From: Escherichia coli
GTDB lineage: Bacteria > Pseudomonadota > Gammaproteobacteria > Enterobacterales > Enterobacteriaceae
Strand: one strand, 5' to 3'
Assembly (NCBI RefSeq): GCF_048403405.1
Contig: NZ_CP183129.1
DNA length: 64,000 nt
Shown here: positions 48,601-54,600 of the stretch, one piece after another
Layout: every line of letters begins with the position of its first letter
How positions within the stretch are numbered: position 1 is the stretch's first letter
Position numbers: made by a program

Positions 48601-51600
48601 CGGAGTCAGGATTAGTCACGCCGAGGCAGTAACGAATACCAAATTGCGCGGCAGCATCGAGAATCGCTTCGCTGTCATCAATAAACAGCGTTCTTTCAGC
48701 TTTCAGTCCCGTAGCTTCGGCCACCGCATGCCATAACCGCTGATCCTCTTTCGGATAACCAAATGTGTGGGTGGAAAGTAATAAATCAAGGTGTGCGTCC
48801 AGACCGGTATGCTCAAGTTTTACCGCCAGGTTGTGCGGATGAGCATTGGTGAGCAAAATTCGCTGCTTACCGCTGGCTTTCAGTGCCTCAAGAAACGGAA
48901 TGGTATCTTCACGCAGTACGGCACGCGGTCCCATCTCGGTGGTCATCGCACAGATATCCAGACCCAGTTGCTCACTCCAGTAATCAAGACAGTACCAGTT
49001 TAGCGTATGCTGTACGTCGTGATATTGCTGGCGCATATATTCCATCGCTTCCTGTGGCGTAACCCCGTTTTTCGCGCCCCATGTTTCAGGCACCAGCTTT
49101 TGCCAGAAATAGTTATCGAAGGCGAGGTCGAGCAACGTGCCGTCCATATCCAGCAGAACGGTATCTACGTCCTGCCAGGCAATGTTGATATGCATGAGGG
49201 AAATCTCCAGAGTGAAGCAATTTGCGCGACAGGGTAGCATAACCTGCCGCGCAAACGTGTTATTCGATAAGGCTTTCTGAAGGGGTGATCAGTTGCGGGT
49301 TCAGGCAGCTTTCATAATAGGCCTGAATCTTCATCATGCGAGTACGATGACGCTGGTAACGACGCCAGGCCTGTACGCCATTATAAATGGCGCTACCCAG
49401 CATCGTCAGTAGCAGCAGCGTGGTGCTGAGATAGCGCCACAGGCCGGAACGATCCGGGATCGGATGAAGGCCAATATGCTGCGTACCATTGGCGTCAGTG
49501 AAGATTTTTGTGACGATACCTTCGGCGTTAAACGGCGTATGCATCAGCATTTGTGCCAGTTTCTGGAAAGCGTTCCACTGTTCTTGCGGCGGATAGTCGT
49601 AAAGTGATGCCGAAGGCCAGGGCTGATCAACAAAATCGCTGCCTTCGTCGCTGACAATCAGGAATCCACCGGGAGCCGGACTGTTTAGTGATTGTGCCGC
49701 TCGCGCCGTTTCATGCGTGATAAACGGCGCGGTGGAGGTTGCCACCAGGTTATCCAGTGATTCCGCACTCACCGGGCGTAATAACACATTCACGCCATCG
49801 AGTTTCCCGGCGTTGGCGCGTTTTACCAGCGCGTCCCAGTCTTTACTGTTACCGAGATTGACCAGCGCATTTTTCAGTCGCACACAGTCATCTTTGGCAG
49901 AACACAGATCCGCTGTCTTCAGTACTATGTCGCCAAAATCATCAAGCAATACCATGCCGGATTTTTGAATTGCTGAACGTAATGAGGCGCTGACGCGAGA
50001 TTCATCTTCCGGTTTAGGGTGCAGCTGGCGATTAACTGCTTCGGTCAATGCCGTCGCTTTGTTGACCAATTCAGATTCTGGTAATGGCAATGAGCGGGCG
50101 TCATTCCAGATGATCTGCGAGCAGTCAAACGGTAAAAAAGGTGAGTTGGTTTTCGCGCTCCAGGTACCGGAAGTGCGAATATTACACATTCCCGTACCGC
50201 TAATACGCAATGTATCGCCAACCCGCACGCCAGCGTCAGCCAGTTGTTTCACGCTGGTGGCTTCAATGGTCTGCGCGCCTTTCATCCACGAGAGGGTGAA
50301 TTTCAGCGGCATATCCAGCGGGATCCAGAATAACAGCATAAACAGCACCAGTAGCGAGCCCGCAGCGATAATCGTACTGCGCAGCCAGTGCTGTAACGGA
50401 AAGTTTTTTACTTCATCATGCAGCGAAAGATATCGCCCCTGACGCACTACGTGGCGGTCGAGATAGATATCGATATCGGTTTGTTGACCGAGATCCTGAG
50501 CAATGTATGGCTGCCAGTGTGCGGGGTAGACCAGGTCGATAATACCGAGTGAAATATTGTTGATCTGTTCCTGATCGTTTTCGCCAAACAATCCCCAACG
50601 ACGGGGTGTACCGCGCAGACAATGAATTTCCCGCAGGGAGGATTTTGCCGGGGGCGCGAATAGCCCCCACAGACCTGCGCCCAGCAGCAGTAACGCGCCG
50701 CCTGCCAGCCACGGAACAAATACATCCGGGGTAATCAGGCAGAAAAAGAACATCAGGAATGAGGCGACAATCAGCAACGCTTCACGCAGCCCGCGCGGAC
50801 GACTTAGCGCATACTCTTCGTGCGTTTCTTTGCGAATATTGAGTAGCTCGATTTGCTCACTCTCTTCCCCGCGAATCGACGCCTGTGTTGACGGAACAGG
50901 TTGCAAGGCATAGCCGCGAGTTTCCTGCATGTACTCCTGCAGCGTATGACCGTTGAGTGAAATAACCAGCGGCAGCGAATTGGTATGAATCAGTTCAACG
51001 GTATTCTCATCGTTGATGTACTGCTCCCAGAAAGGGGGCAGGTGGACTTCTACCGAATCGAGGTAGTAACGCCATTTATTCGGATCGTCGGTAGAGATGC
51101 CGTAACGCGTGATAGCGTGTGTCAGCATCATGACGTTGTTGCTTTCGGCATTCAGCGCCAGAGAGATCGGTGCCGCGCTGGCTCCCGTTGGGCCAGGCAC
51201 CTGTAATACCTGCGTCAGGCTCTCAAGATAATTTTCAGCGGCGCTATGTTCTTCAGGTGTGAGTTTACGCGTTTGCGCATCCGCGAAGGCGTTGATCCAG
51301 GGCAGCTGACGCCGTCTGGATCGCACTTTTATCAGCCATCCCGCAAGTAGTGAGCAGGCCAGCAAAGCAGCTAAAAAAATCACAATGGTGCTCATGCTTT
51401 CCCCATCTTACTTAGTCTGTCAGGCGTGGTCAGTCGCACCGGACACAATACATGATTCTGCGGTTGGCTATCGGCAAGCGTGGAGTTTAACTTGAGCATC
51501 ATTAAGCACATCACAGTAACCGCTGATCATAGCAAACCCTCTGAAGGCGGAATATCAGCAAATTCCTGGAGTTATTTCAACCTATTGACTTTTAATTTGA

Positions 51601-54600
51601 TTTGAGGACGATTATTTATTAAGTTACATAAATGTAAATAACATGCAATTCACATTGCCGAAAGCGTGTCCGATATCGCACAATAACCGCTGATTTCACA
51701 GCATAGATCCCACGATGAGCAAATCATTACAAAAACCCACCATTCTGAATGTTGAAACTGTAGCCCGTTCCCGACTGTTTACCGTCGAAAGCGTGGATCT
51801 GGAGTTCAGCAATGGCGTGCGGCGTGTTTATGAACGAATGCGTCCAACCAACCGGGAAGCAGTGATGATTGTGCCGATTGTGGACGATCACCTGATCCTG
51901 ATCCGCGAATACGCAGTGGGAACTGAATCCTACGAATTAGGTTTTTCGAAAGGATTAATTGATCCGGGTGAAAGCGTCTTCGAAGCCGCAAACCGCGAGC
52001 TAAAAGAAGAGGTTGGATTTGGTGCGAACGATCTGACTTTTTTGAAGAAGCTCAGCATGGCACCGTCTTACTTTTCCAGCAAAATGAATATCGTGGTAGC
52101 GCAAGATCTCTACCCGGAATCACTGGAAGGCGATGAGCCAGAGCCGCTACCACAGGTGCGCTGGCCGCTGGCGCATATGATGGATTTGCTGGAAGACCCT
52201 GACTTCAACGAAGCGCGTAATGTCAGCGCGCTGTTCCTCGTGCGCGAATGGTTGAAAGGGCAGGGGCGGTTGTAAATGCGTGAAGTTTGCCTGATGCATA
52301 ATGCTTATCAGGCCTGTGCGGCTCCTGCAATATATTGATTTTTCTAGATGTTGCTAGACGGGTAAAGTGTTCACGCCGTATCCGGTATAAACAAAGTGCA
52401 CTTTGTCAGCAAACTTAAAAAGGCGCTGAAGCGCCTTTTTAATCAGAACAATTCCTGTGCCTCGCCATTATCGATAATGGTCGTTCCCACCTCGTGCACC
52501 GCCTGTTGTGTCGGCTGCGTACCTTCGATGAAATACTCTTCGCGGCTGTTGCCACCATTAGCTAACTGCCCGGTGCTGCGATCGATATTCACCGTCACAA
52601 TACCCGGCGGCGGCGTCAGCGGCTGCTCCGGCACACCTTCAAGAACGGCTTTCATATAAGCGTCCCATGCAGGCTGGGCACTCTTGGCACCGCCTTCGTA
52701 ACCTGAGATCTGATCTTTAATCGCTCCGGAAGCCGTTGTATGACCGAGATTACGACGGTGATCATCAAAGCCAATCCAGACCGAGGTCACAACGCCCGGA
52801 CCGTAACCCGAAAACCACGCATCTTTCGAACTGTTAGTGGTACCGGTTTTCCCGCCGATATCGCGACGCTGCAAATCATGACCTGCACGCCAGCCGGTAC
52901 CCTGCCAGCCTGGTTCACCAAAGATATTGGTGTTCAAAGCACTCTTAATCAGGAATGCCAGCGGAGTGTTGATGACGTGCGGTGCGTACTCCTGCGCGCC
53001 AGTCTTCGCCACTAACGCCTGATTTGCCTGCTCCAGCTGCGGCATTGGTACAGAAACATTCTGCTGCTCGCGGGAGATAGCGACATCTTCAACATCGTTA
53101 TTTTCCAGCACGTTCGATTTCTGCGTATCACCGTAAATCACCGGAATATCGCATTCCGGGCAGGCTACTTTCGGTTTCGCTTCGAAAATCACGCCGCCCT
53201 GATCGTTTTCAATTTTGCTGATAAACCACGGGTCCACCAGGAAGCCGCCGTTCGCCATGACCGCGTAGCCGCGCGCCACCTGCATTGGGGTGAAGGACGC
53301 TGAACCCAGCGCCAGCGATTCGGTGTGGACAATGTTTTGCGCCGGGAAGCCGAAGCGTTGCAGATATTCTGCAGCGTAGTCGACGCCCATCGCCCGCATT
53401 GCGCGTACCATCACCACGTTTTTCGACTGGCCCAGTCCCTGACGTAAGCGAATTGGACCAGCATATTGTGGCGGCGAGTTTTTCGGCTGCCAGTCAGAAC
53501 CGGCACCTGCGTCCCAGCGAGAAATTGGCACATCGTTCAACATACTTGCCAGCGTCAGACCTTTATCCATCGCCGCGGTGTAGAGGAACGGTTTGATGTT
53601 GGAACCCACCTGACGCAGTGCCTGGGTGGCGCGGTTAAACTTGCTCTGATTGAAATCAAAGCCACCGACCAGCGCCATAACGGCACCGTTTTGCGGATTG
53701 ATCGACACCAGCGCCGAGTTCACTTCCGGCACTTGTGCCAGCCACCATGCATCGCCAACCTGACGAACCCAGATTTGCTGACCCGTTTGCAGAACATCGG
53801 TCACTTTACGCGGCGTCGGTCCCTGCTGAGTATCCGAACGGTAAGGACGCGCCCAGCGAACGCCTTCCATACTCAATGCGACGGTCGACCCGTCCGCCAG
53901 CATCGCCGTCGCTTCCTGAGGATTGGCGCTGGTGACTGCGGCAGGCAGCAGCGGACCATAGGTCGGCAGCGCCTTCAGCGTATCGGTAATCTTGTTGTTA
54001 TCCCACGCCGATTCGCCCACTTTCCACAGCACATTTGCCGGGCCGCGATAGCCGTGGCGCATGTCGTAGTCCAGCACGTTATTACGTACCGCCTGCTGTG
54101 CGGCCTGCTGCACTTTGCGGGTGATGGTGGTGTAAATGCGATAACCGTCTTCATAGGCACTTTCGCCATAACGGTTATACATCTCCTGGCGCACCATTTC
54201 GCTCAGGTACGGCGCAGAGAAAGCAATCTCCGGCGCGTGATAGTTAGCGTTAATCGCCTCAGTGCGTGTCTGATCGAACTGTTGTTGGGTGATATACCCT
54301 TCATCCAGCATCCGCGACAGTACGACGTTACGCCGCGCGACGGCACGATCCATTGAGTAGAGCGGATTAAAGGTGGAAGGCGCTTTCGGCAGCCCGGCTA
54401 TCACCGCCATTTCGTTCAGCGTCAGTTGGTCGACCGTTTTACCGAAATAGACTTGTGCCGCAGCACCGACACCATAGGCGCGGTAACCGAGGTAAATCTT
54501 GTTCAGATAAAGCTCGAGGATCTCGTCTTTCGTCAGCAATTGTTCAATGCGAATCGCGAGGAAGACTTCCTTAATCTTACGCATCAGCGTGCGTTCTGGA

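What the first reader, a model, noticed from the sequence alone, without database searches (positions are those of the whole stretch)
51513..51699. Repeated 11-bp motif and a perfect palindrome in the igaA / nudE divergent intergenic region
The motif taaccgctgat occurs twice (51517-51527 and 51684-51694) with similar flanks (cacagtaaccgctgatcat / cacaataaccgctgattt). Between the copies lies the perfect palindrome ttacataaatgtaa (51624-51637). The arrangement resembles paired operator or activator sites around divergent promoters. I do not recognise these as binding sites of a specific named regulator.
Basis: seen in the sequence. Interest (0 to 1): 0.2.

Follow-up and report, generated by a model that had tools for sequence, protein, structure and literature searches.

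The report
Chance repeat over two divergent promoters
The repeated 11-base motif between the E. coli genes igaA and nudE is real, but only E. coli has both copies, so it is most likely a coincidence lying over the start regions of two ordinary, well-conserved promoters and not a pair of regulator binding sites.

Summary
The window is E. coli, and the 319-bp igaA/nudE spacer is identical to K-12. TAACCGCTGAT is present at both stated positions and extends to a 15/16 match (CACA[G/A]TAACCGCTGAT, 167 bp apart). The "perfect palindrome" is really 6-bp arms around a non-symmetric AA.

Statistically the repeat is weak. Seven such 11-mer pairs occur in the window, and 9.5% of simulated windows contain a 16/1 pair.

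In 80 other Enterobacteriaceae species the spacer length is conserved, but no species has both copies. The motif evolves almost as fast as synonymous sites (identity 0.58-0.59 against 0.47).

What is conserved is promoter anatomy:
- an invariant extended -10 (TGnTAnnnT, 51534..51526) facing igaA;
- an invariant TTGCCG-18-CACAAT promoter facing nudE;
- a published FliA (sigma-28) promoter at 51494..51467;
- unexplained invariant blocks (TTGAC, ATCAGCAAATTC, GTTRC...ATGTAAAT).

Each repeat copy lies over the -10 edge and predicted start site of one promoter, in opposite orientation relative to transcription. The palindrome region is conserved as two separate blocks, not as a symmetric site.

Verdict: ordinary divergent promoter region. 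Low interest.

The parts
51512..51527 (+). Repeat copy 1 (CACAGTAACCGCTGAT; the 11-mer is 51517-51527). It overlaps the last two bases of the igaA extended -10 hexamer and the predicted igaA start site (about 51519), and reads antisense to igaA transcription.
   Evidence: Mean identity across 80 species is 0.58-0.60. The exact 11-mer is present in 4 of 81 sequences.
51679..51694 (+). Repeat copy 2 (CACAATAACCGCTGAT; the 11-mer is 51684-51694). Its first six bases are the invariant nudE -10 hexamer CACAAT. The rest is the discriminator and predicted nudE start region (about 51691).
   Evidence: CACAAT is invariant in 81 of 81 sequences, but 51685-51694 has identity 0.55. The exact 11-mer is present in 2 of 81.
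51624..51637 (.). Imperfect palindrome TTACAT-AA-ATGTAA. It is part of a larger conserved block, GTT[A/G]C (51623-51627) plus ATGTAAATAA (51632-41). Its function is unassigned.
   Evidence: Invariant positions are 51623-25, 51627 and 51633-38. The arms are kept in 20 of 81 sequences.
51526..51536 (-). Predicted main sigma-70 promoter of igaA, of the extended -10 type: 5'-TTTGCTATGAT-3' on the minus strand (TG at 51534-33, hexamer TATGAT at 51531..51526). The predicted start is about 51519 (K-12 about 3,526,345).
   Evidence: This is the only TGnTAnnnT on either strand of the spacer. All five defining bases are identical in 80 of 80 other species, while the n positions vary freely. These positions are listed among the invariant columns of alignment A1. 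No experimental start site was available.
51551..51580 (-). Second sigma-70-like promoter facing igaA: -35 TTGAAA (51580..51575), then 17/18 bp, then TGATAT/GATATT (51557..51551). The invariant block ATCAGCAAATTC (51554-65) overlaps its -10 and spacer.
   Evidence: 9 of 12 match. It passes a PWM threshold in 68 of 81 (17-bp spacer) and 45 of 81 (18-bp spacer) sequences. Its status is uncertain because the best-conserved hexamer, TGATAT, lacks the -11 A.
51467..51494 (-). FliA (sigma-28) promoter facing igaA: CAAGTTAAACTCCACGCTTGCCGATAGC.
   Evidence: Published FliA ChIP-seq site upstream of yrfF (=igaA), FAT score 9, in PMC4183435 Table 2. The exact 28-mer was located in the window. Its -10 block has identity 0.84.
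51655..51684 (+). Predicted nudE sigma-70 promoter: -35 TTGCCG (51655-60), 18-bp spacer, -10 CACAAT (51679-84). The predicted start is about 51691 (K-12 about 3,526,173, minus strand).
   Evidence: It passes the promoter PWM in 81 of 81 sequences at the same aligned position. Identity is 0.97 for the -35 and 1.0 for the -10.
51585..51589 (.). Invariant TTGAC, 4 bp from the minus-strand TTGAAA. It looks like a back-to-back -35 on the + strand, but has no conserved -10 partner.
   Evidence: Identity 1.0. Only 12 of 81 sequences have any nAnnnT hexamer 16-18 bp downstream.
48734..48744 (+). Third exact copy of the 11-mer, inside the yrfG coding sequence, where the opposite strand encodes D-Q-R-L. 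It is incidental.
   Evidence: 98 canonical 11-mers occur three or more times in the window.

Best explanation
The 319-bp igaA/nudE spacer is an ordinary but tightly conserved divergent promoter region, and the 11-mer repeat is a coincidence specific to the E. coli lineage, not a pair of binding sites.

igaA is read from an extended -10 sigma-70 promoter (TGcTATGAT, minus strand 51534..51526). A published FliA promoter lies downstream of it, and a possible second sigma-70 promoter lies upstream. nudE is read from TTGCCG-18-CACAAT (51655-51684).

Each repeat copy begins or ends inside a -10 hexamer and otherwise covers the discriminator and initial transcribed bases. These positions tolerate almost any sequence and so drift. 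The two stretches were already about half alike in the common ancestor of Escherichia, Citrobacter and Enterobacter, and drifted to 15/16 in E. coli alone.

The central inverted repeat is made of two independently conserved blocks (GTTRC and ATGTAAAT). They act at the DNA level as RNA polymerase or regulator contacts, not as a symmetric operator or an RNA hairpin.

Shown: sequence facts, conservation patterns, and FliA binding (published). Inferred: promoter assignments and start sites, since no start-site data could be retrieved.
For: Conservation of the repeat:
- The spacer is at least 99% identical in 5,425 of 5,426 E. coli genomes, so variation within the species is uninformative.
- In 80 other Enterobacteriaceae species the spacer length is conserved, at about 320 bp.
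- The exact 11-mer is at site 1 in 4 of 81 sequences and at site 2 in 2 of 81. Both occur only in the window.
- Identity of the copies is 0.58 and 0.59, against 0.47 at nudE four-fold sites and 0.715 for the spacer.
- Identity between the two sites is 15/16 in the window, 14 in the nearest Escherichia species, 12 in E. albertii, and a median of 8 overall.

Statistics:
- There are 7 comparable 11-mer pairs in the window, and 9.5% of simulated windows contain a 16/1 pair.
- The core 8-mers are 4-5 times over-represented.

Promoters:
- The only TGnTAnnnT in the spacer has all five defining bases invariant in 80 of 80 species, with free variation at the n positions.
- TTGCCG-18-CACAAT scores as a promoter in 81 of 81 sequences.
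- FliA ChIP-seq binds the 28-mer at 51494..51467.

Insertion evidence:
- IS insertions that lower igaA function map to the leader at -17, -20, -43 and -47. This places the promoters upstream of about 51442.
- A natural E. coli isolate carries IS1 at 51559-51566. It separates igaA and copy 1 from the palindrome and copy 2 by about 0.8 kb, yet igaA, an essential gene, is intact.
Against: - No experimental start site for igaA or nudE could be retrieved. The Salmonella igaA promoter paper was not held, and four start-site or sigma-factor supplements gave nothing. The promoter assignments therefore rest on conservation and consensus.
- A 15/16 match inside one 319-bp spacer is rare when only that spacer is considered (roughly 5e-4 by my own estimate).
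- The 167-bp spacing is close to 16 helical turns, as a looping pair would need.
- A regulator specific to E. coli cannot be excluded by comparative data.
- Several invariant blocks (ATCAGCAAATTC, TTGAC, GTTRC, ATGTAAATAA) are more conserved than RNA polymerase contacts alone would require and remain unexplained.
- The phenotype of the IS1-bearing isolate is unknown.
Confidence: 0.8

Rival explanations
1. Paired operator or activator sites. A protein specific to E. coli binds both direct-repeat copies. Each copy sits on a core promoter, so the protein could repress igaA and nudE together, possibly by looping the 167 bp between them.
For: The match is 15/16 and both copies overlap a -10 and start region. 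The 167-bp spacing is about 16 helical turns (plus arithmetic). The pair is unique in the window at this stringency.
Against: - The pair is not conserved even within the genus Escherichia, and evolves at a near-neutral rate.
- The motif has no internal dyad or tandem half-site structure (one search reports no inverted repeat within it).
- The copies are oppositely oriented relative to their promoters.
- 9.5% of random windows contain such a pair.
- No further copies lie in promoters elsewhere in the window; the only other exact copy is coding.
- No binding report was found in the literature searched.
Confidence: 0.05
2. The central block (GTTRC-N5-TGTAAAT, which includes the palindrome) is the binding site of a conserved transcription factor. 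One candidate type is an OmpR/ArcA-type response regulator that recognises repeats 10-11 bp apart. Such a factor would tune nudE and/or igaA.
For: - Invariance across 81 species at 51623-25, 51627 and 51633-38 exceeds what a -35 or UP element usually shows.
- The block has no conserved -10 partner on either strand.
- It lies at about -50 to -68 from the predicted nudE start, a typical activator position.
- From memory only: 12 of 15 bases match the ArcA direct-repeat consensus GTTAATTAAATGTTA, and the block resembles OmpR/RstA boxes (GTTACA, TTTACA).
Against: - The ArcA-critical T in the second repeat is an invariant A.
- The motif does not recur in the window (4 hits against 3.0 expected).
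- No binding data were found.
- A natural IS1 insertion separates this block from igaA without loss of the gene.
- In E. coli the right arm also fits a -35 (TTTACA-16-AATAAT, 10 of 12).
Confidence: 0.25
3. The right arm of the palindrome is the -35 hexamer (TTTACA, 51638..51633) of a distal igaA promoter whose -10 is AATAAT (51616..51611).
For: It is the best consensus match in the spacer, at 10 of 12. TTTACA is invariant.
Against: The -10 partner lies in the least conserved part of the spacer (identity 0.1-0.6). Only 29 of 81 sequences have any nAnnnT hexamer at 16-18 bp, and only 7 of those match TATAAT at 4 or more positions. This cannot explain the invariance outside Escherichia.
Confidence: 0.2
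4. The inverted repeat forms an RNA hairpin in a nudE leader, or the spacer encodes a small RNA or a small protein.
For: The A/G polymorphism at 51626 would keep an A-U or G-U pair on the + strand transcript. A 41-codon ORF (51480-51605, + strand) is open in 37 of 81 species.
Against: - The consensus fold is only -5.15 kcal/mol, with no compensatory pair.
- There is no Rfam match (best E-value 0.9, below the gathering score).
- Variability along the ORF is flat across codon positions (0.23, 0.24, 0.26).
Confidence: 0.03

Closest known systems
Back-to-back divergent sigma-70 promoters in enterobacterial intergenic regions
   Same: Two genes are read outward from one spacer of about 320 bp. The conserved hexamers sit at fixed positions and the spacer length is conserved across genera.
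   Different: No regulator is assigned. Several invariant blocks between the promoters are unexplained.
Extended -10 (TGn) promoters of E. coli
   Same: TG one base upstream of a TAnnnT hexamer, with no recognisable -35. Exactly the polymerase-contact bases are invariant.
   Different: The start site and sigma dependence were not tested here. From memory, the Salmonella igaA operon is reported as sigma-70-dependent with RpoS/MviA influence (Garcia-Calderon 2009). That paper could not be read.
FliA (sigma-28) class 3-type promoter upstream of yrfF/igaA (Fitzgerald et al. 2014, PMC4183435)
   Same: The exact published 28-mer is at 51494..51467, 18 bp from repeat copy 1.
   Different: It is a separate element from the repeat. 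igaA mRNA did not change in a fliA deletion (62 against 53).
Paired or looping operators (lac O1/O3, gal OE/OI, ara O2/I1)
   Same: Two like sequences lie 167 bp apart, in helical phase, and both overlap core promoters.
   Different: Those operators have dyad symmetry, a known protein, and are conserved with their regulator. Here there is no symmetry and no protein, and the pair occurs in 1 of 81 species.
ArcA / OmpR-family direct-repeat boxes and the TyrR box
   Same: GTTACA and TGTAAA half-sites lie 10-11 bp apart and are AT-rich. This resemblance is recalled from memory.
   Different: An invariant A replaces the T needed for ArcA. The half-site order is the reverse of the TyrR box (TGTAAA-N6-TTTACA). 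Nothing was tested against a real matrix or binding data.

Membership tests
Paired operator / looping repressor sites | Two or more copies of one recognition sequence near the regulated promoters | tested here: met
   15/16 identity, 51512-27 and 51679-94. Both overlap predicted core promoters.
Paired operator / looping repressor sites | Both copies maintained by selection in orthologous regions | tested here: not met
   Both exact copies occur only in the window among 81 species. Identity is 0.58 and 0.59 against a neutral 0.47.
Paired operator / looping repressor sites | Internal dyad symmetry or tandem half-sites within each site | tested here: not met
   No inverted or direct sub-repeat is reported inside the 16-mer. 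The 11-mer shares no position with its reverse complement (read from the sequence).
Paired operator / looping repressor sites | A cognate protein shown to bind | not testable with these tools
   Literature searches found only FliA binding nearby.
Symmetric (palindromic) operator | Dyad symmetry conserved, with changes in one arm mirrored in the other | tested here: not met
   The repeat is not a perfect palindrome. The 6-bp arms are kept in 20 of 81 sequences. The A/G change at 51626 is never mirrored at the invariant 51635.
Extended -10 sigma-70 promoter (igaA) | TG at -15/-14 followed by TAnnnT, oriented toward the gene | tested here: met
   TGCTATGAT on the minus strand, 51534..51526. It is the only such match in the spacer.
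Extended -10 sigma-70 promoter (igaA) | Conservation confined to the polymerase-contact bases | tested here: met
   TG, TA and the final T are identical in 80 of 80 species, and the n positions vary.
Extended -10 sigma-70 promoter (igaA) | Transcript 5' end 6-8 nt downstream of the hexamer | not testable with these tools
   Start-site supplements gave nothing and the Salmonella promoter paper was not held.
-35/-10 sigma-70 promoter (nudE) | Two hexamers at 16-18 bp spacing, conserved in position | tested here: met
   TTGCCG-18-CACAAT passes the PWM in 81 of 81 sequences. Identity is 0.97 and 1.0. The start site was not tested.
FliA (sigma-28) promoter | TAAAGTTT-N11-GCCGATAA-like motif bound by FliA holoenzyme in vivo | tested here: met
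   The published ChIP-seq site and motif were located exactly in the window. FliA-dependent expression was not seen in that study.
Known cis-regulatory RNA or small RNA | Match to an Rfam model, or a conserved structure with covariation | tested here: not met
   No hit reaches the gathering score. The consensus fold is -5.15 kcal/mol with 0 compensatory pairs.

The most novel reading that the evidence does not exclude
Such a regulator would set the transcription of igaA, the essential brake on the Rcs envelope-stress phosphorelay. This would add an input to Rcs set-point control beyond the published FliA promoter.
Probability: 0.2. Interest if true: 0.35.

Novelty: not a real feature. Interest (0 to 1): 0.1.

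Why it matters
As a paired regulatory motif it does not matter. The repeat is a coincidence specific to E. coli, sitting on sequence that is free to drift.

The by-product is modestly useful. igaA is essential, and small drops in its expression, typically caused by IS insertions in this spacer, switch on capsule synthesis, phage resistance and macrophage evasion. A conservation-based map of its promoters helps to interpret such mutations. The map comprises an extended -10 promoter, a possible upstream promoter, the FliA promoter and several invariant blocks of unknown role. It also gives precise bases to mutate.

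Tried and rejected
- RNA element: Rfam at a permissive threshold gave nothing credible. The consensus fold of the + strand 51618-51717 gave -5.15 kcal/mol and no compensatory pair.
- Small protein: the 41-codon ORF 51480-51605 is open in 37 of 81 species but shows no third-position bias. The minus-strand ORF 51514-51392 is open in 2 of 81.
- The third motif copy as evidence of a regulon: it lies inside the yrfG coding sequence, and triple 11-mers are common in the window.
- TTTACA as a conserved -35, and TTGAC as a conserved + strand -35: neither has a conserved -10 partner.
- Further copies of the 16-mer or of the GTTRC...TGTAAAT block in the window: none above chance.
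- Start-site evidence: the Garcia-Calderon 2009 and Thomason 2015 papers are not held. The Kim 2012, Cho 2014, Cappable-seq and Salmonella sigma-factor supplements gave no entry; the Cappable-seq file is truncated before this locus.
- Regulator-binding literature: nothing links a factor other than FliA to this spacer. The session's paper cap stopped a look at the PPTP-seq data.
- By eye and from memory, I checked sigma-E, sigma-32, CRP, FNR, RcsB box, marbox, PhoP, CpxR, IHF, Lrp and DnaA-box resemblances. None was both a good match and conserved, and none was tested against a real matrix.

Full report
WHAT IS THERE

The window is Escherichia coli. The 319-bp spacer 51396-51714 is at least 99% identical in 5,425 of 5,426 complete E. 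coli genomes, and no feature is annotated on it. It is 100% identical to K-12 MG1655 3,526,150-3,526,468, which lies between nudE (b3397) and igaA (b3398). In the window igaA is 49260-51395 on the minus strand and nudE is 51715-52275 on the plus strand.

THE OBSERVATION

TAACCGCTGAT occurs exactly at 51517-51527 and 51684-51694. With its flanks it is a 16-mer matching at 15 of 16 positions (CACAGTAACCGCTGAT and CACAATAACCGCTGAT), 167 bp apart. A third exact copy lies at 48734-48744 inside yrfG, where the opposite strand encodes D-Q-R-L.

The sequence ttacataaatgtaa is at 51624-51637, but it is not a perfect palindrome. It has 6-bp arms around a non-symmetric AA.

IS IT MORE THAN CHANCE?

- Seven exact 11-mer direct pairs within 200 bp occur in this window, against 3.0 expected in Markov-1 simulations.
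- The 16-mer pair with one mismatch is the only one in the window, but 9.5% of simulated windows contain one.
- The core 8-mers of the motif (for example ACCGCTGA, 10 copies against 1.95 expected) are 4-5 times over-represented. This fits their being made of common E. coli codons.
- 98 canonical 11-mers occur three or more times in the window.
- Inverted repeats of the 6-2-6 form occur 22 times against about 16 expected.

On statistics alone neither feature is remarkable. Only their co-location in one spacer is.

COMPARATIVE TEST

A scan with NudE returned 80 species-level Enterobacteriaceae loci with 89-99% NudE identity. All keep the divergent igaA/nudE arrangement, and in most the spacer stays close to 320 bp (full range 267-335). 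I aligned all 81 spacers and a 19-genus subset (alignment A1).

As a neutral yardstick, four-fold degenerate sites of nudE are on average 0.47 identical to E. coli, and none is invariant. The spacer averages 0.715 and has 44 invariant positions.

The two 11-mer copies score 0.58 and 0.59. The parts lying outside the -10 hexamers score 0.55-0.56.

The exact 11-mer is at site 1 in 4 of 81 sequences and at site 2 in 2 of 81. Both occur only in the window. Three other Escherichia species have TAAATACTGAT at site 2, a fourth has TAACTGCTGAT at site 1, and E. albertii differs at both sites.

Identity between the two sites is 15/16 in E. coli, 14 in its nearest relative in the set and 12 in E. albertii. 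The median is 8 and the range 2-11 elsewhere. The likeness therefore grew by drift from a half-alike ancestor.

WHAT IS CONSERVED INSTEAD

1. igaA extended -10 promoter. On the minus strand, 5'-TTTGCTATGAT-3' (51536..51526) is the only TGnTAnnnT in the spacer on either strand. TG, TA and the final T are identical in all 80 other species. The other positions vary freely: TATGAT, TATCAT, TAAGCT, TATTCT, TACTAT, TAACAT. This is the footprint expected of an extended -10 promoter. I infer that it is the main sigma-70 promoter of igaA, with a start near 51519.
2. nudE promoter. On the plus strand, TTGCCG-18-CACAAT (51655-51684) passes a promoter matrix at the same aligned position in 81 of 81 sequences. 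CACAAT is invariant. I infer that it is the nudE promoter, with a start near 51691.
3. FliA promoter. The minus-strand 28-mer CAAGTTAAACTCCACGCTTGCCGATAGC (51494..51467) is the FliA (sigma-28) promoter found upstream of yrfF by ChIP-seq, with a FAT score of 9. igaA mRNA did not change in a fliA mutant (PMC4183435).
4. Possible second igaA promoter. TTGAAA-17/18-TGATAT/GATATT on the minus strand (51580..51551) is kept in 68 and 45 of 81 sequences respectively. It is less convincing because the best-conserved hexamer lacks the -11 A.
5. Unexplained invariant blocks: TTGAC (51585-89), ATCAGCAAATTC (51554-65), and GTT[A/G]C plus ATGTAAATAA (51623-41).

WHERE THE REPEAT COPIES SIT

- Copy 2 is CACAAT, the nudE -10, followed by AACCGCTGAT, the discriminator and start region. 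It reads in the direction of nudE.
- Copy 1 ends with AT, the last two bases of the igaA -10 hexamer on the other strand. The rest covers the igaA discriminator and start region, and it reads antisense to igaA.

The two copies are therefore not equivalent with respect to the promoters they overlap. Apart from the -10 bases, they lie on positions where promoters tolerate almost any sequence. That explains both the drift and the lack of conservation.

THE PALINDROME

The region is highly conserved overall (0.90), but unevenly. The right arm scores 0.998 and the left arm 0.81. The 6-bp arms survive in 20 of 81 sequences, and the A/G polymorphism at 51626 is never mirrored at the invariant 51635. 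Selection therefore acts on two blocks, not on symmetry.

In E. coli the right arm fits a -35 (TTTACA-16-AATAAT, 10 of 12). However, the -10 partner lies in the most variable part of the spacer. Only 29 of 81 sequences have any nAnnnT hexamer at the right distance.

As RNA, the stem has no compensatory change and the consensus fold is -5.15 kcal/mol. Rfam finds nothing.

The block lies about 50-68 bp upstream of the predicted nudE start, where an activator or a polymerase alpha-subunit contact would sit. From memory it resembles ArcA or OmpR-family repeats, but an invariant A replaces a T that ArcA needs. I could test no matrix or binding data. Its role is open.

GENETIC CONTEXT FROM THE LITERATURE

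IS insertions that reduce igaA function, causing mucoidy, phage resistance and macrophage evasion, recur in the igaA leader. They map to -47 and -43 (PMC3861542), -20 (PMC11541549) and -17 (PMC10044975), which is window positions about 51412-51442. All are downstream of every promoter proposed here, and none is at the repeat or the palindrome.

One natural isolate (AR_0019) carries IS1 with an 8-bp target duplication at 51559-51566. This puts about 0.8 kb between igaA with copy 1 and the palindrome with copy 2, while igaA remains intact. igaA is essential. The insertion therefore argues that neither the palindrome nor the pairing of the two copies is needed for igaA expression. The strain's phenotype is unknown, and IS1 could supply promoter activity.

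COMPARISON WITH KNOWN SYSTEMS AND VERDICT

The region works like any back-to-back divergent promoter region. It contains an extended -10 promoter, a weak -35/-10 promoter and a documented sigma-28 promoter.

It is not a member of the paired-operator class. Of that class's defining features, repetition and helical phasing are met. Conservation and internal symmetry were tested and are not met. Protein binding could not be tested.

The repeat is best called a coincidence, so as a regulatory feature it is not real.

What remains is the set of invariant blocks of unknown function next to an essential stress-signalling gene. This is a modest lead, and I give it a probability of about 0.2 of reflecting an unassigned regulator.

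Overall interest is 0.1.

Noticed in passing
window 51467-51494 (minus strand): A published FliA (sigma-28) promoter faces igaA. Its -10 block CTATCGGC is conserved across most genera (identity 0.84). This suggests a conserved link between the flagellar regulon and the Rcs brake, even though igaA mRNA did not change in a fliA mutant.
   Followed up: partly
L082 3001-4095 (E. coli AR_0019), equal to window 51559-51566: A natural IS1 insertion with an 8-bp target duplication (CAAATTCC) lies inside the invariant block ATCAGCAAATTC. It splits the igaA side of the spacer from the nudE side. The phenotype of the strain is unknown.
   Followed up: partly
window about 51412-51442 (igaA leader, -17 to -47 from the start codon): This is a recurrent IS1/IS5 insertion hot spot in laboratory evolution under phage or macrophage pressure, seen in three independent papers. 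All insertions are downstream of the promoters proposed here.
   Followed up: partly
window 51554-51565, 51585-51589, 51574-51580: The blocks ATCAGCAAATTC, TTGAC and ATTTCAA are invariant or nearly so across 81 species. They are more conserved than the hexamers of the promoter they might belong to. TTGAC has no conserved -10 partner. They are unexplained.
   Followed up: partly
window 51396-51433 (minus strand): The last ~40 nt of the igaA leader are almost invariant (TAAGTAAGATGGGGAAAGCATG). A promoter-like CTGACC-17-TAAGAT scores in 61 of 81 species. This probably reflects constraint on translation initiation, not a promoter.
   Followed up: no
window 51480-51605 (+ strand): A 41-codon GTG-initiated ORF, antisense to the igaA leader, stays open in 37 of 81 species. 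It shows no codon-position bias in its variability, so it is probably kept open by the conserved regulatory blocks it crosses.
   Followed up: yes
window 51525-51528: A Dam site (GATC) overlaps the last bases of the igaA -10 hexamer in E. coli (TATGATC). Its C at 51528 is shared by only 27 of 81 species, so it is not a conserved feature.
   Followed up: no
window 51396-51714 compared with nudE 51715-52272: The spacer is far more conserved (0.715 identity, 44 invariant positions) than the synonymous sites of the adjacent gene (0.47, none invariant). In most species its length stays close to 320 bp (full range 267-335).
   Followed up: yes
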